A stretch of 40,654 bases of DNA from an uncultured Gammaproteobacteria bacterium (GTDB lineage: Bacteria; Patescibacteriota; Microgenomatia; UBA8517). Positions 190-12,918 of this stretch are shown here, piece by piece. Each line of letters opens with the position of its first letter. Position 1 is the stretch's first letter. The position numbers were made by a program, and so were the translations under genes. The stretch lies in contig CAYSJW010000019.1 in assembly GCA_964431555.1 (NCBI GenBank), positions 1 through 40,654 of the forward strand, in the 5' to 3' direction. The notes below the pieces were generated by a model. That model was not told where the DNA came from, made no database searches, and worked only from the letters and a program-made list of their open reading frames with translations.

Positions 190-1293
190 ATGATATCGTA
201 TAAAAATTTACACAAAATAGGCAAATTAAAATTGTGGCAAAAGTATTGCCAAATCCAACTTATAAAACATCCACTTAGTTATCTTTTTTGGGAATGTACT
301 TTAAGATGTAATCTCAACTGCCGGCATTGTGGAAGTTCTTGCGGCCCAGAAAGAGTTAGCAAAGAAGAACTCTCCACTGAAGAAATAAAAAATGCTTTTC
401 GCACAGTTGCAGAGGATTTCAACCCCAAAAAAATAACTATCGCAGTGACTGGCGGAGAACCACTTCTAAGAAAGGATATTTTTGAAGTAATGAGATATGC
501 CAGTGAACTAGGTTTCTCCTGGGGAATGGTAACCAATGGCACCTTAATCACTCCCGAAATTGTCAATCAAATGCGTAAAGCAAAAATATCCACAGTTTCT
601 GTGAGTTTAGATGGTTTGGAAAATAGCCACAATTGGCTTAGGAAAAATAAAAGTGCCTTTAAACGAACGGTTGATGGAATTAAATTACTAGTATCATCCA
701 AAAGTTTTAACGCGATTGAAATTATTTCGTGCATTAATCAAGTCAATTTTGAAGAATTAAAATTAATTTACCAAATGTGTAAAAATTTAGGAGTAGACAA
801 ACTGCGAATATCCACCATTTCCCCTATAGGCAGAGCAAAAGGTAATTCCAAACTTTTCTTGAATGGCAATCAATTACTTTACTTACTAAAATACATTAAG
901 AATAAACGCAAAAAAAAGAATAAACCAGAAGTGAGTTTCTGTGATGAAGGCTTTTTAGGCCTAGAATATGAGGGGGAAGTGAGAGATCAATTATTCTTTT
1001 GCTGGGCAGGAATTAGAGTGGGAAGTATACTCTATAATGGAGACATAGCTGCTTGTCCTAATTTATCCCGAGAACATACCCGACAGGGTAATGTGAGACA
1101 AGACAGATTTTCTGAAATTTGGAAAAAAAAATATGAATTGTTTCGCAATAGAAACTGGCGGAAATGCGGTTACTGCAAGAATTGCACGTGGTGGGAATTT
1201 TGCGAAGGTAATAGTATACATTTATGGAATTTTGAATCTAACCAACCAACATTGTGTAATTATAATTTAATTAACCGAAAAAAATCTAAATAA
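190..1293 (+). CDS. Radical SAM/SPASM-domain protein, putative peptide/protein maturase (resembles the rSAM/lipoprotein-system family; splicease candidate)
   Basis: CNLNCRHC (CxxxCxxC) within FWECTLRC, TGGEPLLR, VTNG, SVSLDG; C-terminal SPASM cysteines CWAG...GDIAACP...CGYCKNC...FCEG...LCNY. Confidence 0.9.
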   Translation: MISYKNLHKIGKLKLWQKYCQIQLIKHPLSYLFWECTLRCNLNCRHCGSSCGPERVSKEELSTEEIKNAFRTVAEDFNPKKITIAVTGGEPLLRKDIFEVMRYASELGFSWGMVTNGTLITPEIVNQMRKAKISTVSVSLDGLENSHNWLRKNKSAFKRTVDGIKLLVSSKSFNAIEIISCINQVNFEELKLIYQMCKNLGVDKLRISTISPIGRAKGNSKLFLNGNQLLYLLKYIKNKRKKKNKPEVSFCDEGFLGLEYEGEVRDQLFFCWAGIRVGSILYNGDIAACPNLSREHTRQGNVRQDRFSEIWKKKYELFRNRNWRKCGYCKNCTWWEFCEGNSIHLWNFESNQPTLCNYNLINRKKSK

Positions 1294-1300
1294 AAAAATT

Positions 1301-1609
1301 ATGCGAAAAAAAACAACTTCCAGGATAATAAAAGGTTTAAAAAAATTATGCAGTACTTTTTGGTATATTTCACTTTATTTAATATTTGTACTAACATTTG
1401 CAAAAGAAACCAAGGCTAAAATAACACCCGCATATGGAATTCAACCTCCCAAACCTAAAGAAACACTATTAAAGTCTCTTTCATTTATCATCATTTTGCC
1501 TATTCTCCTAGTCATTTCTTTACTGGTTGGATTAATCTGGTACAAAAAAAAGCAAAAGAATAAAAAGATTTTTAGGATCAAAAAAACTTCCAAACCCAAG
1601 CTGCCCTAA
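1301..1609 (+). CDS. Small membrane-anchored protein with signal-peptide-like N-terminus and PAYG motif; candidate substrate of the upstream rSAM enzyme
   Basis: Starts 7 nt after the rSAM stop. Basic N-terminus, hydrophobic segment ending ETKA, then KITPAYGIQPPKP, a second hydrophobic helix (FIIILPILLVISLLVGLIWY) and a Lys-rich tail. Confidence 0.7.
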   Translation: MRKKTTSRIIKGLKKLCSTFWYISLYLIFVLTFAKETKAKITPAYGIQPPKPKETLLKSLSFIIILPILLVISLLVGLIWYKKKQKNKKIFRIKKTSKPKLP

Positions 1610-1934
1610 TTTCACTTCCATTCTAAAATCACCACCCACTCTCCGGACAATGATTCTCAAACTTTCAATAAACTCATCCCTCAATTTTTCTTCCTCCTGA
1701 GATCTTCCACCATTAAATTCCATCGTTTCCATCTTATAGTAATTTTGAAAAACTTCTACCAAAATATAAACAAAATCAAACAACTATAATCTTGGACCTT
1801 ACGAAAAAGTTATACAACACTATTCAACCTACAGACTAAAGCCTATATTTTAATGCCTGGTGAAAATTTTACGTAGTAAATAATCAAAATTTTATATGAG
1901 AAAAGTTGTTCAAAAAGTGGCTTAAGGTAAAAGG

Positions 1935-2008
1935 TGCCAGCGACTGGGATTGAACCAGTGACCTTGGCGTTATGAATGCCACGCTCTAACCAACTGAGCT
2001 ACGCTGGC
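1935..2008 (-). tRNA. tRNA-Met(CAU), probably elongator
   Basis: Reverse complement folds GCCAGCG-TA-GCTC..GAGC-G-TGGCA-TTCATAA-CGCCA-AGGTC-ACTGG-TTCAATC-CCAGT-CGCTGGC-A. G1-C72 paired; CCA not fully encoded. Confidence 0.93.
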
Positions 2009-2180: not shown

Positions 2181-2250
2181 TGCGGGGTAGTGTACGGCTG
2201 CACGGAAGGCTCATAATCTTCCAGATCAGGTTCAACTCCTGACCCCGCAA
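2181..2250 (+). tRNA. tRNA-Met(CAU), initiator-like acceptor stem, atypical
   Basis: TGCGGGG-TA-GTGT-ACGGCT-GCAC-G-GAAGG-CTCATAA-TCTTC-CAGA-TCAGG-TTCAACT-CCTGA-CCCCGCA-A. GCGGGG/CCCCGC acceptor as in tRNA-fMet. Confidence 0.88.
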
Positions 2251-2386
2251 CAAGTTTTTTATAAAATTAACCCCTTAGTTCATTTAAGCAACTCTAAACA
2301 AAGCTTTTTTGGTGTCTCTGGGTAAAATTACTTTCTCGCGTCTTAGTTTTTTTTAACTAAATGTTTTAGCTAATTTAGATTAAATT

Positions 2387-2875: not shown

Positions 2876-3739
2876 ATGACGGAGGAAATTCTTAAAAATC
2901 TGCTCTCTAATTTTATAACCAACCTTAAAGAAAAACAAAGGTCTCCCTCAACAATACTTGCCTACCGGGCTGACCTAGAACAACTTTTGACATTTCTAGA
3001 AAAAAGACAAAAAATCTTTGCCAGTCAAGTAGTTGAAAGCGACATAGAAGCTTTTAGAGATTCACTTTTAAATGAAAAGTACACTCCAAAAAGTGTATCA
3101 AGAAAATTAAATGCGATAAAAACATTCTTCAGGTACCTTATTGCCGAAAAGCACACCATGAGAGACCCTTCAGAAAATGTTTCCCATCCAAAAATAGAAT
3201 CGAACCAACCAAAATACCTCAGTCCTTTAGAATATAGAGTTCTGAGAGACGTTGTTAGAGAAGACGTAAAAATCGCCACAATTATCGAACTAATCTTACA
3301 AACAGGAATGAGAATATCAGAAGTAGCAAGTTTAAAACTTGAAAATATAAAAAGAGATGGAATAAAAATTGAAGCCTATGCAACACAACCGGAAAGAAAT
3401 ATCAAACTCAACCAGCCCGCCAGAAAGGCCTTACAAGAATATTTAGAACAAAGACCAAAGACAGATTCTCCATATGTCTTTGTAAGTAAAAATGGTAGAC
3501 CTCTAGCGATCAGAAATATCCGTTCTGCAATAGATAGATATTTCAAAAAAGCTGATATTGGCGAGTATTCTGTAAATGACTTAAGAACCACATTTATAGT
3601 GGAGAACCTGAAAAGTGGTGTTAATCTTATGCTCATTTCACATACAGTAGGTCATAAAAGACTTTCGACAACAGAACGTTATCTTAGTCTCGCGGGAATT
3701 AAAGTACCTGGCAGGAAACAAAGATTAATTGAACTTTAG
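2876..3739 (+). CDS. Tyrosine recombinase, XerC/XerD family
   Basis: N-terminal SPSTILAYRADL / SVSRKLNAIKTFF; catalytic TGMRISE, NDLR (normally HxLR), VGH, TTERY. Confidence 0.9.
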   Translation: MTEEILKNLLSNFITNLKEKQRSPSTILAYRADLEQLLTFLEKRQKIFASQVVESDIEAFRDSLLNEKYTPKSVSRKLNAIKTFFRYLIAEKHTMRDPSENVSHPKIESNQPKYLSPLEYRVLRDVVREDVKIATIIELILQTGMRISEVASLKLENIKRDGIKIEAYATQPERNIKLNQPARKALQEYLEQRPKTDSPYVFVSKNGRPLAIRNIRSAIDRYFKKADIGEYSVNDLRTTFIVENLKSGVNLMLISHTVGHKRLSTTERYLSLAGIKVPGRKQRLIEL

Positions 3740-3927
3740 TCCTCATCTTAAAATATTCCCAATAAAAGCTAACCAACCAAAAAGGTACTTTATTTCAACC
3801 TGTAAATTCTTGCTTTGCAAAATTTAAAAAATCGAAAACTATAAAAAGCTTCAATTTGAAGATATCTTACACATTAGAAAATTTAAACTTTAAAACTGTA
3901 AAAATATTTTAAAAATAAATAAAAAAG

Positions 3928-4000
3928 TGGTCCGGGATGGATTCGAACCATCGACTTCCATTTTATAAGAATGGCACTCTAACCGCTGAGTTACCGGACC
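3928..4000 (-). tRNA. tRNA-Ile(UAU)
   Basis: Reverse complement GGTCCGG-TA-ACTC-AGCGGTTA-GAGT-G-CCATT-CTTATAA-AATGG-AAGTC-GATGG-TTCGAAT-CCATC-CCGGACC-A. All stems perfect; anticodon TAT at +3965-3967. Confidence 0.93.
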
Positions 4001-4096: not shown

Positions 4097-6424
4097 TCAA
4101 AGCTTGGCACGAGTCATAATTTCATTTTCAACCAATCTTACATCCCTCCCGTATTTTAGCCTGCTCATCTCCTTGATTATCTGCGCGACTTTAGGATTTT
4201 TCATTTTCTTCCATTCTTCAATATCTTTTGCCACACTCATAGAAAAAGGAGGGACTGTCTCATTATTGACAATTGTTTTTACATAGATATGATATTTTTC
4301 AATATTTAAAAGATCATCCTCAGAAAATGTAGGGGCGAATTCTCTCGCCAAATAGTTGGCATCCGAAACCCCAACACGATAACACATTAGAGTTCCGATG
4401 TTACCAAAAATTGCGTTTTTTACCTCTTCATCAATCTGACCTATAAACTGATTGGCAACACACAAAGCAAGTCTAAACTTTCTTGCTTCGGACAAAATCT
4501 GAGCAAAATCCGGTGTAGCAAAATTCTGAAACTCATCTACATAAAGAAAAAAGTCACGTCGTTGATCTTCTGGAGTGTCTGCTCTACTCATAGCGGCAAT
4601 CAAAATTCTTGGAACCATAATTAAACCCAAGAAGCTTGAATTTTCTTCACCCAACTCCCCTTTGGACAAATTCATAAAGAGAATCTTACCCTGATCCATA
4701 ACCTCCCTAAAAGAAAATGATGATTTAGACTGGCCAATAATATTTCTTATCATCTTATTAGTGACAAAACGCCCAAACTTGGAGACTATATAATCCAACA
4801 CTTCAGACTTATGAAAATCCGAAGTTTGAGCTATCTGATCAGTCCAATAACGACGGACGATTGGGTCCTGAACCTTGGGAAGAAGCTCCTGAACATATTT
4901 TGAATCAGTTAAAGTTCTCATTACCTCTATGAAGGTATTACCTTCTTCACTCATAACCGTTAACATCGCGTTTCTTACCGCATGTTCAAAACGCGGACCG
5001 ACAATACCAGTTTTATAAGGATCAAAGAGTTTATACATCATATTAATAACCGCCGTTGCAGCAAAGTGCTTCTGGTCTTCAGTCTTAGCCTCCAATAAAT
5101 TCATACCCATAGGCCTTTCTGTATCAAATGGATTAAAATAAATCACATCTTCCGCTCTTTCAGGAGGTACCAACTCCAAAAGTTCTTCAACAGCATCTCC
5201 ATGAGGATCAATAAAACAAAGTCCCTTTCCGCTTTTCATATCTTGAAGAATCCAATCCTCCAAAAGCTTTGATTTACCCGTACCGGTTTTACCAATGAGA
5301 TACATATGCCTCATTCTGTCCTCATCAGAAATGTAAACTCCCCTTTCAACTCCCCTATAAATACTCTTTCCCATAAAAAGTCCCTCTGTGGGTATTTCCG
5401 CCGGGGCAGGTGCCCGCCTTGCATGAACCCAAAAGATATGAGGAGTGGTTATCAGCTTATTAGGAAAGTGAAAAATGGTTGCCAATTCTTCTGAATTAAG
5501 AATTGAAATTCTGTTTCCGAATATGTTAAACATAGGATGATACCTATATAGAAAATCTTCAACAAAAGCCCCTTTTCTTCTAATTTTTCGGGAAGTAAAT
5601 CCATTAAGATCACCGGAAAACTGCTCAAAAGCACTCATTATATTGGTTAAATGAGCGCTAGCTGAATGTTCATCGGAAGAAACACAAACTATCCTTATTG
5701 TGGTTTCAAATCCCGGCTTGGAAACTTTGTTTTCTATTGCTTCTAAAGTTTTTGCACCAACAGAAAACTTTGCCTTTTCGGGGTCAGATTCTTGTTTTTT
5801 AGTTGTCGAAATAAACGAGGAGCCTTCTTTTTGCCAACTACTTTCAGCTGGGGAAATTAAAACCTGTACCGCGGCAGATTCATTTTCCCCCATCTTGGCA
5901 AGAGCAGAGGTCAAAAGCGACAAAGGATCTGTGGGAAGCTCTTTAAATGTCTTAATAGGATAATAATTTTCTTTTCTCAACTGAAGCGATTTATAGGCAA
6001 CTTTGCCATCTTCCGTAAAAAGATTATATTCCGGAACCTCCTGAATGTCTGCGTCAGGATATACACCATGAATTTGCTTCTCTATAAGATCTTGAAACTC
6101 TCTTGGCGTCCAAACATAAAACCTAATATCTTCCTTCTTGGCAACGATCTCAAAGGAAACAACCGGCTGGCTTTTATACTTTTGTTTCCAACCCCCTTTC
6201 TTTATAGAATATAAAGCCGAAAAAAACTGCTCCATGGCATCTATCTTAATTTCATTATTTTTAGGGACCGCAACCTGAAGCAAAACCGAATCCAGAGATT
6301 TTTCTTCTCTATCCAAACTTTTCAACCTACTCCACAAAAAAACAACAACTCCAACAGAAATCAACAAAAAAATGCCAAATAAAAAAACCGTTAAAAAAAA
6401 TATCGTTAAATCAAAAGGAACCAT
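4097..6424 (-). CDS. VirD4/TraG/TraD-like (HerA/FtsK-superfamily) membrane-anchored ATPase
   Basis: N-terminal TM helix; RHMYLIGKTGTGKS (Walker A), FIDPHGD, LYVDEFQNF (Walker B), LSEARKF, ANQFIGQ, AIFGNIGT. Confidence 0.88.
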   Translation of the reverse strand: MVPFDLTIFFLTVFLFGIFLLISVGVVVFLWSRLKSLDREEKSLDSVLLQVAVPKNNEIKIDAMEQFFSALYSIKKGGWKQKYKSQPVVSFEIVAKKEDIRFYVWTPREFQDLIEKQIHGVYPDADIQEVPEYNLFTEDGKVAYKSLQLRKENYYPIKTFKELPTDPLSLLTSALAKMGENESAAVQVLISPAESSWQKEGSSFISTTKKQESDPEKAKFSVGAKTLEAIENKVSKPGFETTIRIVCVSSDEHSASAHLTNIMSAFEQFSGDLNGFTSRKIRRKGAFVEDFLYRYHPMFNIFGNRISILNSEELATIFHFPNKLITTPHIFWVHARRAPAPAEIPTEGLFMGKSIYRGVERGVYISDEDRMRHMYLIGKTGTGKSKLLEDWILQDMKSGKGLCFIDPHGDAVEELLELVPPERAEDVIYFNPFDTERPMGMNLLEAKTEDQKHFAATAVINMMYKLFDPYKTGIVGPRFEHAVRNAMLTVMSEEGNTFIEVMRTLTDSKYVQELLPKVQDPIVRRYWTDQIAQTSDFHKSEVLDYIVSKFGRFVTNKMIRNIIGQSKSSFSFREVMDQGKILFMNLSKGELGEENSSFLGLIMVPRILIAAMSRADTPEDQRRDFFLYVDEFQNFATPDFAQILSEARKFRLALCVANQFIGQIDEEVKNAIFGNIGTLMCYRVGVSDANYLAREFAPTFSEDDLLNIEKYHIYVKTIVNNETVPPFSMSVAKDIEEWKKMKNPKVAQIIKEMSRLKYGRDVRLVENEIMTRAKL

Positions 6425-12408: not shown

Positions 12409-12906
12409 TTACTCTTTAAGATTCATTTTACACCCGCTGTAAGCTAAATCCATAGTTAAAAGTATCTTCTGGTAAATCCTTTTAGCTTCTTCGTAATCAA
12501 TTACATTTCTTTCCTTAGGAAACCAATGAAAAAGAAGATTCCTACCCTCCTTCCAAGTCTCCCATAATAAATTCGGCAGGGTGTCTCCTCCGCAAAAATC
12601 AACCAATTTATCATAGACGCTTTCATTTTCTCGAAAATCCTTTTCCAAATTTGGGTTTAGAGCTCTGCCTATTCTAAACCTTTTGCCAAAATATTCTTCA
12701 GCGCCAATTAAACCTAGATCGTAAAATAGCGTTTTCAGATAACCTTCATATGCTTTTGCCGCCGGAAAAACCAAAAAAGCATAATCGTGAAACTTTTCCT
12801 TCCAACTTCTTATTTTTTTAATTAAGATCTCACTTTCTCTTAAAAGATCTTTCAAATCATCATGAATATAATTCCACCAAATATGTTTTTCTAAAGCCTT
12901 TTCCAT
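12409..12906 (-). CDS. Stand-alone HEPN-domain protein resembling the RnlA/LsoA C-terminal RNase domain
   Basis: DYAFLVFPAAKAYEGYLK helix plus GRNLLFHW (R-x4-H), the motif pair typical of RNase LS-type HEPN domains. Confidence 0.6.
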   Translation of the reverse strand: MEKALEKHIWWNYIHDDLKDLLRESEILIKKIRSWKEKFHDYAFLVFPAAKAYEGYLKTLFYDLGLIGAEEYFGKRFRIGRALNPNLEKDFRENESVYDKLVDFCGGDTLPNLLWETWKEGRNLLFHWFPKERNVIDYEEAKRIYQKILLTMDLAYSGCKMNLKE

Positions 12907-12918
12907 ATTCAAACCAAT

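What the first reader, a model, noticed from the sequence alone, without database searches (positions are those of the whole stretch)
190..1609. Candidate Tyr-excising 'splicease' paired with a membrane-tethered XYG peptide in a CPR-like genome
Seen: an rSAM/SPASM gene followed 7 nt later by a 102-aa ORF built as signal-like segment (..ETKA) + short exposed loop KITPAYGIQPPKPKET + TM helix + Lys-rich tail; A-Y-G is encoded at 1430-1438. Established: PlpX-type rSAM/SPASM spliceases remove tyramine from XYG motifs, leaving an alpha-keto-beta-amino acid, a ketoamide of the kind used as a protease-inhibitor warhead. Inference: this pair makes a surface-displayed, membrane-anchored ketoamide peptide rather than a secreted RiPP, possibly acting on host proteases. 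No RRE/PlpY partner, peptidase or exporter is visible nearby. Dedicated RiPP-type chemistry is unexpected in such a reduced genome.
Basis: partly seen in the sequence, partly recalled or inferred. Interest (0 to 1): 0.85.

Follow-up and report, generated by a model that had tools for sequence, protein, structure and literature searches.

The report
Radical SAM enzyme with YG-peptide partner
A radical-SAM enzyme gene sits next to a tiny exported, membrane-anchored protein whose conserved tyrosine-glycine pair is probably the enzyme's target, and the same pairing recurs in many bacterial phyla, though the chemistry has not been measured.

Summary
A 367-aa rSAM/SPASM gene (190-1293) is followed after 7 nt by a 102-aa ORF (1301-1609). 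That ORF has a signal peptide, a short loop with A-Y-G (1430-1438), a TM helix and a Lys-rich tail.

The enzyme is not a PlpX-family member: TIGR04103 scores 135.8 bits against a cut-off of 725. Its best family is TIGR04133, the "rSAM with lipoprotein" family, at 350.8 bits, below the cut-off of 425. It forms one clade with true TIGR04133 proteins (99/99).

In 103 of 125 dereplicated homologous loci, an adjacent same-strand ORF has an N-terminal hydrophobic segment plus YG, against 2.9% of control ORFs. These partners are Bacteroidota TIGR04134 lipoproteins, short lipoproteins or TM-anchored mini-proteins like this one. The motif context, P-x-Y-G-hydrophobic-(x)-P, resembles splice sites of characterised spliceases.

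The nearest annotated outgroups include the TIGR04103/TIGR03913 clade, but that grouping is only moderately supported.

My reading is a maturase-substrate pair acting at Tyr45-Gly46 before Sec export. Tyramine excision is the most likely chemistry, about 55%, and is unproven. The system is rare in its phylum, found in 5 of 401 sampled genomes.

It is a new variant of a known but uncharacterised system. Whether Scott et al. 2022 already lists it could not be checked.

The parts
190..1293 (+). rSAM/SPASM enzyme gene (367 aa), TIGR04133-like; no N-terminal RRE domain (the rSAM core starts at about residue 31)
   Evidence: ORF. Pfam PF04055 and PF13186. NCBIfam TIGR04133 at 350.8 bits (cut-off 425), against TIGR04103 at 135.8 bits. 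Monophyletic with true TIGR04133 proteins at 99/99.
307..330 (+). Codons for C40-x3-C44-x2-C47, the radical-SAM [4Fe-4S] motif. It is followed by G48-S49, which the family shares with the TIGR04103/TIGR03913 clade.
   Evidence: Invariant in 21 homologues; positions. G48/S49 occur in 30/30 family rows and 5/5 splicease-type rows, against 0/11 and 1/11 other SPASM outgroups.
1000..1257 (+). SPASM region with conserved Cys 271, 289, 329, 332, 338 and 356 (auxiliary Fe-S clusters)
1294..1300 (+). 7-nt spacer between the two genes, consistent with co-transcription (inferred)
   Evidence: No promoter- or terminator-like site above shuffle expectation in 1-2300.
1301..1609 (+). 102-aa partner gene: the predicted substrate, exported and membrane-anchored
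   Evidence: Architecture conserved next to the closest enzymes. No Pfam or NCBIfam family, TIGR04134 included.
1301..1417 (+). Residues 1-39: basic N-terminus, hydrophobic core and T-K-A. A Sec-type signal peptide with predicted cleavage after A39 (my reading of the sequence).
   Evidence: Hydropathy. Relatives have AKA|Q, TKA|Q and ARA|Q at the aligned place.
1430..1438 (+). A44-Y45-G46: the predicted modification site. It lies 5-7 residues after the predicted mature N-terminus, in the context T-P-A-Y-G-I-Q-P-P.
   Evidence: Y45 and G46 are the only invariant columns in 16 partner sequences (the rows were chosen among YG-flagged ORFs). Enrichment statistics.
1475..1543 (+). Residues 59-81: transmembrane anchor, ending in G-L-I-W-Y
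   Evidence: Hydropathy up to 3.35. GLIWY(K/R)K is conserved in L103, L105 and L023.
1544..1606 (+). Residues 82-102: Lys-rich tail, predicted cytoplasmic by the positive-inside rule (inference)

Best explanation
The two genes are a maturase-substrate cassette. The cytoplasmic rSAM/SPASM enzyme recognises the unfolded region just behind the signal peptide of the 102-aa protein, through the P-x-Y-G-hydrophobic-x-P motif, and modifies Tyr45-Gly46 before the protein leaves through the Sec pathway. The hydrophobic signal helix may play the part of a leader.

The most likely chemistry is the one known for XYG motifs. [quoted passage not shown] After signal-peptidase cleavage (predicted after A39), the product would be a 63-residue type-I membrane peptide. 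Its 19-residue outer segment would carry the electrophilic ketoamide about five residues from the new N-terminus.

Shown here: the gene pair, its architecture, the conserved adjacency across phyla and the conserved YG.

Inferred: that the partner is the substrate, the timing before export, the cleavage site, the chemistry and the biological role. The ketoamide could be a protease-directed or otherwise reactive surface group.
For: 1. Conserved adjacency. 160 related loci were fetched. With the window that makes 161, of which 154 had a callable enzyme ORF, collapsing to 136 representatives at 90% identity.
   - Of the 125 with at least 150 nt on both sides, 103 have an adjacent same-strand ORF with an N-terminal hydrophobic segment and YG.
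   - The control is 175 of 5952 ORFs (2.9%) elsewhere in the same loci.
   - The partner is downstream only in 25 representatives, upstream only in 71 and on both sides in 13.
2. Motif density. YG occurs at 0.89 per 100 aa in downstream partners against 0.15 in controls. YG.{0,2}P is present in 33 of 56 downstream partners against 49 of 2853 control ORFs.
3. Position. In 121 of 134 partner ORFs a YG follows the N-terminal hydrophobic segment, at a median of 13 residues (IQR 9-19).
4. Divergence around a fixed site. Among 16 TM-type partners (mean column identity 22%), only Y45 and G46 are invariant. Partner type changes (TIGR04134 lipoproteins at 52-150 bits, short lipoproteins, TM-anchored peptides) while YG stays.
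5. No second invariant residue exists that could serve as a cross-link partner. The residue before Tyr varies widely (K 45, E 40, L 30, M 24, C 14, A 11). Spliceases are reported to accept many X residues (passages of PMC9811515).
6. Motif likeness to real splice sites.
   - The PlpA tags PIRPLYGLPI and AVAAGYGVVFP are quoted in PMC10533398.
   - A Nostoc Nif11 precursor next to a TIGR04103 enzyme ends ...SIALYGLPPELF.
   - The window has TPAYGIQPPKPKE.
7. Relatedness.
   - After three TIGR04133 hits, the best plasmid-borne relative is a TIGR04103 enzyme (30.9% identity over 92% of the query, 130 bits), level with an MftC.
   - In trees the family (99/99) sits with the TIGR04103/TIGR03913 clade and PqqE at 82/89. 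A 57-row tree separates these from the MftC/NirJ-like rows at SH-aLRT 95.
   - G48, S49, W205 and P290 are shared by 27-30 of 30 family rows and 4-5 of 5 splicease-type rows, but by at most 2 of 11 other SPASM outgroups. The same test on a NirJ-like group found 1 position.
8. Binary spliceases without a Y protein or RRE are described (whole-text part 1 of PMC11414181). This fits the absence of PqqD in this genome.
9. Complex prediction gave weak support only.
   - Score 0.48 (runs 0.48, 0.40, 0.54); best of 3 controls 0.02.
   - The mark was reached by 58 of 80 solved complexes and 2 of 110 mismatched pairs. At 0.60 or under, it was reached by only 7 of those 80 and by both mismatches that passed.
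   - The runs agree in at least 78% of contacts, and the partner's pLDDT is at least 62.
   - My own alignments and the added ligands differ from the calibration, and no contacts were given.
Against: - The enzyme fails the splicease family model (TIGR04103 at 135.8 bits against 725). Heme-type SPASM models (AhbD 161.4, NirJ2 152.5) and MftC (150.5) score higher than TIGR04103.
- The grouping with the splicease-type clade is not strongly supported and includes the long PqqE branch.
- Five family-conserved positions (P91, L92, N116, R215, F307) are shared with most other SPASM outgroups but not with the splicease-type clade.
- Known spliceotide precursors carry Nif11/NHLP-type leaders and use PCAT-type export, not Sec signal peptides. 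A cytoplasmic Fe-S enzyme must therefore act before export or membrane insertion, which is unproven here.
- 22 of the 125 loci showed no partner by my criterion. At least four of these 22 do have one that the criterion missed: L104 runs off the contig end, L109, L118 and L130.
- The criterion is loose and my ORF caller takes the longest ORF.
- The 16 rows of alignment A2 were picked from ORFs already flagged for YG, so their invariant YG is partly built in.
- No mass, activity or expression data exist.
Confidence: 0.55

Rival explanations
1. Same maturase-substrate pair and same target (Tyr45-Gly46), but a different radical chemistry. Candidates are epimerisation, C-beta or ring functionalisation of Tyr, an oxidative change such as that made by MftC on its C-terminal Val-Tyr, or a link from Tyr to a non-protein group such as a lipid or cell-wall component.
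For: All the pairing evidence applies equally. SPASM relatives that act on Tyr by other reactions are about as close as the spliceases: MftC scores 150.5 bits and PqqE 90.5, MftC ties with TIGR04103, and PqqE sits in the same weakly supported group. The family is a separate clade at about 28-31% identity to the TIGR04103/TIGR03913 enzymes, which leaves room for a change of reaction.
Against: An internal X-Y-G with a variable X and no second invariant residue is the signature of tyramine splicing. It is not the signature of PqqE (Glu-Tyr pair) or MftC (C-terminal Tyr) substrates. The flanking P/hydrophobic/P context matches known splice tags.
Confidence: 0.3
2. The small ORF is a real membrane protein but not a substrate. 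The enzyme would make a cofactor or small molecule (AhbD/NirJ-like tetrapyrrole chemistry, for instance), and the neighbour would only anchor, regulate or use it.
For: The second-best NCBIfam hits are heme-pathway SPASM enzymes (AhbD 161.4, NirJ2 152.5 bits). No leader-peptide family, peptidase or exporter is seen downstream.
Against: Those scores are far below the cut-offs of 500. In the tree the NirJ/TIGR04053/TIGR04347 rows fall on the other side from this family. A non-substrate neighbour would not be expected to keep only a Tyr-Gly at a fixed place while changing from lipoprotein to TM peptide across phyla. Neighbouring genes other than the pair are not conserved among close relatives.
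Confidence: 0.08
3. ORF2 is a chance open frame in AT-rich DNA and the enzyme stands alone.
For: The DNA is about 33% G+C and short ORFs are common. ORF2 matches no family and scored under 0.8 in the protein atlas. No Shine-Dalgarno-like sequence is obvious before it.
Against: ORFs of the same length, strand, spacing and architecture follow the closest enzymes. They keep the signal-peptidase-like site, YG, the TM segment and GLIWY(K/R)K at only 25-30% overall identity, which is the pattern of a protein under selection.
Confidence: 0.03

Closest known systems
Spliceotide systems: PlpX/PcpX/RhaX-type tyramine spliceases (NCBIfam TIGR04103; the related TIGR03913 enzymes with DUF1843 'GDL motif' peptides) and their XYG precursors
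   Same: The enzyme is rSAM plus SPASM. The precursor gene is adjacent. The target-like motif is X-Y-G with a hydrophobic residue and Pro after Gly and often Pro at -2. One to several YG sites occur per precursor. Binary forms without a Y protein or RRE exist. G48-S49 after the CxxxCxxC motif is shared.
   Different: It is not a member by HMM (135.8 against 725 bits) and forms a separate clade at about 28-31% identity. The partner has a Sec-type signal peptide and a membrane anchor, not a Nif11/NHLP leader, and no PCAT or peptidase is seen downstream. The chemistry is unmeasured here. Scott et al. 2022 (Chem 8:2659) reportedly predicts 939 systems, but I could not read it or its supplements, so this family may already be listed there.
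TIGR04133 rSAM/SPASM protein with TIGR04134 'radical SAM-associated putative lipoprotein' (NCBIfam hypothetical equivalogs, function unknown)
   Same: TIGR04133 is the best-scoring family for the enzyme (350.8 bits). The enzyme is monophyletic with true members, including an annotated Treponema pair. The partner is exported and carries YG a few residues behind its signal or lipobox.
   Different: The score is below the curated cut-off of 425. Only 6 of 24 tested relatives, all from Bacteroidota-labelled or Bacteroidota-like loci, pass it, at 540-605 bits. The window's partner has no lipobox, no CarboxypepD_reg-like domain and no TIGR04134 match. It is held by a C-terminal TM helix instead of a lipid.
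Anaerobic sulfatase-maturating enzymes (anSME/AtsB/ChuR) with sulfatases
   Same: This is an rSAM/SPASM enzyme acting in the cytoplasm on a short motif of a protein that is then exported, which is a precedent for modification before export (recalled knowledge). anSME is among the solved relatives (4k37, E 2e-14).
   Different: anSME oxidises Cys/Ser to formylglycine in a C/S-x-P-x-R motif of large enzymes. The relationship is distant and the motif differs.
MftC and PqqE (Tyr-directed SPASM maturases)
   Same: Both act on Tyr of a small gene-encoded peptide. Their similarity to the window enzyme is comparable to that of TIGR04103.
   Different: They need RRE chaperones (MftB, PqqD), which are absent here. 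Their substrates have a C-terminal Val-Tyr or a Glu-x3-Tyr pair, not an internal X-Y-G.

Membership tests
Tyramine splicease / spliceotide system | Radical SAM CxxxCxxC core plus a SPASM domain with auxiliary-cluster cysteines | tested here: met
   PF04055 at 86.4 bits and PF13186 at 40.3 bits. C40/C44/C47 and C271/289/329/332/338/356 are invariant in 21 homologues.
Tyramine splicease / spliceotide system | Adjacent precursor gene with one or more X-Y-G motifs, conserved among homologous loci | tested here: met
   A-Y-G at 1430-1438. 103 of 125 representative loci against 2.9% of control ORFs. Y and G are the only invariant columns in A2 (rows pre-selected for YG).
Tyramine splicease / spliceotide system | Enzyme scores as NCBIfam TIGR04103 (nif11-class peptide radical SAM maturase 3) or TIGR03913 | tested here: not met
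   TIGR04103 at 135.8 bits (cut-off 725); TIGR03913 at 101.8 bits (cut-off 591.75).
Tyramine splicease / spliceotide system | Phylogenetic placement with experimentally validated spliceases | tested here: inconclusive
   No validated splicease sequence was available. With annotated TIGR04103/TIGR03913 stand-ins, the family groups with them and PqqE at 82/89, and apart from the MftC/NirJ-like rows at SH-aLRT 95.
Tyramine splicease / spliceotide system | Nif11/NHLP-type leader, with a Y protein/RRE in type I systems | tested here: not met
   The ORF2 N-terminus is a signal peptide. No PqqD match was found in the genome. Binary systems lack the Y protein, so this feature does not define all types.
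Tyramine splicease / spliceotide system | [quoted passage not shown] | not testable with these tools
   Needs co-expression and LC-MS/MS.
TIGR04133 / TIGR04134 rSAM-lipoprotein pair | Enzyme reaches the curated TIGR04133 cut-off (425 bits) | tested here: not met
   350.8 bits. 18 of 24 relatives, including the window's clade, score 288-389; 6 score 540-605.
TIGR04133 / TIGR04134 rSAM-lipoprotein pair | Enzyme forms one clade with true TIGR04133 proteins | tested here: met
   Family clade at 99/99, including the annotated Treponema TIGR04133 protein and the Bacteroidota members.
TIGR04133 / TIGR04134 rSAM-lipoprotein pair | Partner matches TIGR04134 (lipobox plus a CarboxypepD_reg-like domain) | tested here: not met
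   ORF2 has no TIGR04134 hit. Partners of L103, L105, L023 and L024 have none either, while partners from Bacteroidota-labelled or Bacteroidota-like loci and an Alkaliphilus locus score 52-150 bits.
TIGR04133 / TIGR04134 rSAM-lipoprotein pair | Partner is exported and carries YG shortly behind the signal sequence | tested here: met
   (median 13 residues behind the hydrophobic segment; 11 in the window).

The most novel reading that the evidence does not exclude
Sec signal peptides and lipoprotein signals serve as the 'leaders' of a large, cross-phylum class of splicease substrates. Cells from gut Bacteroidales to ultra-small Patescibacteria would then display lipid- or helix-anchored proteins with a backbone alpha-ketoamide a few residues from the mature N-terminus. 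In the window's organism the whole product would be little more than this reactive group on a membrane stalk: a tethered electrophile aimed at proteases, or at amine or thiol groups, of a host cell or of the cell's own envelope. It would not be a secreted RiPP.
Probability: 0.35. Interest if true: 0.8.

Novelty: new variant of a known kind. Interest (0 to 1): 0.6.

Why it matters
If the chemistry is tyramine splicing, beta-amino-acid ketoamides would not be confined to secreted RiPPs. They would also be a post-translational mark of exported, surface-anchored proteins in many phyla, including abundant gut Bacteroidales and reduced episymbiotic bacteria.

It would give a function to two NCBIfam families that are only 'hypothetical equivalogs' (TIGR04133 and TIGR04134). 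It would be a second case, beside anSME, of a radical SAM enzyme acting on Sec substrates before export.

The window's 102-aa partner is close to the smallest form of the system (Firmicutes-like loci such as L120 have 42-51-aa lipoprotein partners): signal peptide, motif and anchor. That makes it a convenient test substrate. If the chemistry differs, the pair marks a new Tyr-Gly-directed radical modification.

Tried and rejected
- Literature. No paper in the library holds 'TIGR04133' or both 'splicease' and 'lipoprotein'. 'TIGR04134' occurs in one unrelated T9SS review, seen in the search listing only. A four-term search gave only irrelevant gut-metabolome papers.
  - Scott et al. 2022 (Chem 8:2659) is not held. 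I know it only through passages in citing papers and from memory.
  - Supplements are closed, so I cannot say whether this family is among its 939 predicted or 27 validated systems.
- Earlier findings of this scan were not open to the session.
- Solved structures. No splicease structure was found. The best matches are SkfB (8.1e-23), a 'Radical SAM domain protein' (5wgg, 2.8e-21), a cytosylglucuronate decarboxylase, anSME and PqqE, so no fold search was run.
- Protein atlas for ORF2: best score 0.79, with nothing usable.
- Sequencing runs: only one DNA run, possibly the source sample. No RNA holder was listed, and read laying was not used.
- Promoter and terminator scan of 1-2300: nothing above shuffle expectation.
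- Composition: about 0.33 G+C across the pair and its surroundings, with no sign of recent transfer.
- Synteny: genes around the pair differ among the closest relatives, so no conserved peptidase or exporter was found.
- The idea that motif, TM helix and basic tail form a sortase- or exosortase-like C-terminal sorting signal was considered and dropped. Lipoprotein-type partners keep YG at the N-terminus without any C-terminal TM segment.
- Close kin: 60 relatives of the same family, order or class had no orthologue with this query. The best was 27% identity at E 6.5e-22.
Full report
**Observation**

The window holds an ATG-started ORF at 190-1293 (+, 367 aa). After a 7-nt spacer comes an ATG-started ORF at 1301-1609 (+, 102 aa). 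The codons GCA-TAT-GGA for A44-Y45-G46 lie at 1430-1438.

ORF1 carries Pfam Radical_SAM (residues 36-195) and SPASM (271-333). C40-x3-C44-x2-C47 and six SPASM-region cysteines are invariant among 21 homologues.

ORF2 reads as follows:
- a basic N-terminus;
- a hydrophobic core at about residues 19-34;
- T-K-A followed by K40;
- a 19-residue polar loop that contains T-P-A-Y-G-I-Q-P-P;
- a very hydrophobic segment at 59-81;
- a Lys-rich tail.

The window begins at base 1 of its contig in a 0.996-Mb, 35-contig genome rated 99.5% complete. Nothing upstream of the enzyme gene can be judged.

**What the enzyme is**

Against NCBIfam the best model by far is TIGR04133, 'rSAM_w_lipo', a hypothetical equivalog. 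It scores 350.8 bits, below its cut-off of 425.

The PlpX-type model TIGR04103 scores 135.8 bits (cut-off 725) and TIGR03913 scores 101.8 bits. AhbD (161.4), NirJ2 (152.5) and MftC (150.5) all score above TIGR04103. The protein is not a PlpX-family member.

Of 24 relatives tested, 6 pass the TIGR04133 cut-off at 540-605 bits, all from Bacteroidota-labelled or Bacteroidota-like loci. The other 18 score 288-389, including the window's closest relatives. The window enzyme thus belongs to a wider clade around TIGR04133.

A database search found 4043 homologues. The close ones (60-79% identity) come from metagenomes. Named hits come from Patescibacteria, Chloroflexota and Methanocella.

**The neighbour test**

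I fetched 80 loci from genome assemblies and 80 from metagenomes. With the window that makes 161, of which 154 had a callable enzyme ORF.

The enzymes closest to the window's are L102/L103 and L104/L105 (70-72% identity) and L023 (60%). Each is followed by a small ORF with the same build:
- a signal peptide ending AKA|Q, TKA|Q or ARA|Q;
- a short stretch with P-x-Y-G or Y-Y-G;
- ...PEE;
- a TM helix ending G-L-(I/L)-W-Y-(K/R)-(K/N)-(K/R).

These small proteins are only 25-30% identical to ORF2.

In many other loci the partner lies upstream on the same strand. Bacteroidales loci have ~130-185-aa lipoproteins with ...C...(E/M)-Y-G-(T/S/V)-P. Others have short lipoproteins with repeated K-Y-G-P-P-P, and Firmicutes-like loci have 42-65-aa lipoproteins.

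After dereplication at 90% identity there are 136 representatives, 125 of them with at least 150 nt on both sides. In 103 of those 125, an adjacent same-strand ORF of at least 22 aa has an N-terminal hydrophobic segment and YG. The same criterion is met by 175 of 5952 (2.9%) other ORFs in these loci.

At least four of the 22 misses are failures of my criterion rather than true absences (L104, L109, L118, L130).

Other measures:
- YG density is 0.89 per 100 aa in downstream partners against 0.15 in controls.
- A YG follows the hydrophobic segment in 121 of 134 partner ORFs, at a median of 13 residues.
- In an alignment of 16 TM-type partners (mean column identity 22%), Y45 and G46 are the only invariant columns. 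I chose these rows among ORFs already flagged for YG, so that result is partly built in. The independent evidence is the enrichment.

The Bacteroidales-type partners, an Alkaliphilus partner and an annotated Treponema one are TIGR04134, 'radical SAM-associated putative lipoprotein'. They have a weak CarboxypepD_reg-like domain. ORF2 and its close relatives match no family.

**Relation to spliceases**

[quoted passage not shown] Binary systems without a Y protein exist. Scott et al. 2022 found further systems by looking for YG-rich neighbours of rSAM-SPASM genes, with 27 characterised and 939 predicted.

That paper is not in the library and supplements are closed. I cannot tell whether TIGR04133-type pairs are among them. 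From memory I think it likely that some are, but this is recall, not a result.

A tblastn search of plasmids gave three TIGR04133 proteins first. Next came a Nostoc 'nif11-class peptide radical SAM maturase 3' (30.9% identity over 92% of the query, 130 bits), level with a Thermomicrobium MftC.

The Nostoc enzyme's neighbouring Nif11 precursor ends ...SIALYGLPPELF. DUF1843 peptides next to TIGR03913-type enzymes start with (P/L)-x-Y-(G/A/M). The PlpA splice tags printed in PMC10533398 are PIRPLYGLPI and AVAAGYGVVFP. The family's consensus is P at -2, L/K/E/M/A at -1, V/P/I/T after Gly, then P. It is of the same kind, and the window has T-P-A-Y-G-I-Q-P-P.

In an IQ-TREE analysis of 46 rows:
- the family is monophyletic (99/99);
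- it lies in a group with PqqE and a clade of TIGR04103, TIGR03913 and three unnamed enzymes (that clade at 100/98), and this grouping has only 82/89 support;
- MftC, NirJ, TIGR04053, TIGR04347 and GrrM fall elsewhere.

A quicker 57-row tree separated the family plus the splicease-type clade from five MftC/NirJ-like rows at SH-aLRT 95.

Four family-conserved positions are shared with 4-5 of the 5 splicease-type rows and at most 2 of 11 other outgroups: G48 and S49 directly after the cluster motif, W205 and P290. Five others go the opposite way. The relationship is suggestive, not settled.

**Mechanism**

The enzyme has no signal peptide and needs Fe-S clusters and SAM, so it should work in the cytoplasm (inference). 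Its partner is built for export.

The simplest sequence of events is recognition of the unfolded stretch behind the signal peptide, radical chemistry at Tyr45-Gly46, then Sec export, signal-peptidase cleavage (predicted after A39) and anchoring by the C-terminal helix. anSME acting on sulfatases before export is a precedent for this order (recalled knowledge). anSME is also among the solved relatives.

Two observations favour a reaction confined to X-Y-G, for which tyramine excision is the only known precedent. There is no second invariant residue that could serve as a cross-link partner. The residue before Tyr varies freely.

With X = Ala, the product would be a methyl-bearing alpha-keto-beta-amino acid about five residues from the mature N-terminus, on a 19-residue outer segment.

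A complex prediction of the enzyme with residues 1-62 of ORF2, SAM and three clusters gave weak support only:
- The score was 0.48 (runs 0.48, 0.40, 0.54), and the best of 3 controls was 0.02.
- The mark was reached by 58 of 80 solved complexes and 2 of 110 mismatches. At 0.60 or under, it was reached by only 7 of those 80 and by both mismatches that passed.
- The runs agree in at least 78% of contacts, and the partner's pLDDT is at least 62.
- My own alignments and the ligands differ from the calibration, and no contacts were returned.

My estimates are about 85% that ORF2 is the enzyme's substrate with YG as the site. Given that, I put about two in three on tyramine splicing, which makes 0.55 for the whole statement.

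**Context and distribution**

Downstream lie two tRNA-Met genes, a DivIC-like gene, a XerC-like recombinase, tRNA-Ile(UAU), a TrwB/VirD4-like ATPase, a cobalamin adenosyltransferase, a class II ribonucleotide reductase and NrdR. None suggests a peptidase or exporter for the pair.

Genes around the pair are not conserved among close relatives. G+C is even at about 0.33. No PqqD/RRE match exists in the genome.

Among 60 relatives of the same family, order or class, no orthologue was found with this query (best 27% identity). Among 401 genomes sampled across the phylum, 5 including this one have a match at E <= 1e-50. Three of the other four have YG partners. The system is rare and patchy in this lineage.

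**Verdict**

The pair is a TM-anchored, minimal variant of the uncharacterised TIGR04133/TIGR04134 system, linked here to splicease-type substrates by motif and by moderate phylogenetic evidence.

Noticed in passing
window 3927-4000 (-): A tRNA-Ile gene with anticodon TAT (UAU). I recall this as an uncommon way for bacteria to read AUA, with no check made here. Two tRNA-Met(CAT) genes lie nearby at 1933-2008 (-) and 2181-2251 (+); one of them could be an Ile2-type or an initiator.
   Followed up: no
window 2876-3739 (+) and 4097-6424 (-): A XerC/phage-integrase-type recombinase and a 775-aa TrwB/VirD4-like coupling-protein homologue lie between tRNA genes just downstream of the pair. This could mark a mobile or formerly mobile region, but G+C is even.
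   Followed up: partly
own genome G000: C5:20995-21873 (-) and C31:53206-54834 (-): Two larger predicted exported proteins (292 and 542 aa) carry ...QSLYGTPGD... and ...FTYGPLEDPE... shortly after a signal peptide. They might be further substrates of the enzyme, or chance matches: 8 of 4837 ORFs met the loose pattern.
   Followed up: no
L023:3649-3972 (+): Just upstream of the 60%-identical enzyme lies a second small exported ORF. It has a signal peptide...AAQTQYPEE... and a TM segment, so it has Tyr but no Gly after it. It may be a paralogue that has lost the motif, or one that never had it.
   Followed up: no
L035:3456-4014, L118:4003-4733, L120:2380-2672, L141:332-1834, L145:635-1659: Several loci carry two or three tandem partner genes, each with its own YG motif(s), next to one enzyme gene. 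This resembles multi-precursor RiPP clusters.
   Followed up: no
L022:537-959 and L022:5209-5622 (+): In the 69%-identical Saccharibacteria-labelled locus, the downstream ORF and a similar ORF 3 kb upstream have an N-terminal TM helix and a shared G-G-Y-G-x-(I/V)-K motif, followed by a ~90-aa domain. This is a different partner type for a very similar enzyme.
   Followed up: no
L198 (G169:C73:599-1678, -): The orthologue in one genome of the phylum shows two in-frame TAA codons within the match, although its YG partner gene is intact. This could be a pseudogene, an assembly error or a recoding event.
   Followed up: no
L195:1674-5029 (Tropicibacter oceani plasmid): An unnamed radical SAM protein that groups with the TIGR04103 enzyme (94/44) is followed by a trypsin-like peptidase gene and an M23 peptidase gene. 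This is an interesting neighbourhood if its product is a protease-directed ketoamide.
   Followed up: no
window 12409-12912 (-): A 167-aa ORF has weak, below-cut-off matches to the RnlA/RNase LS toxin DNA-binding and HEPN domains (26.0 and 24.7 bits). It may be a toxin-antitoxin or defence remnant.
   Followed up: no
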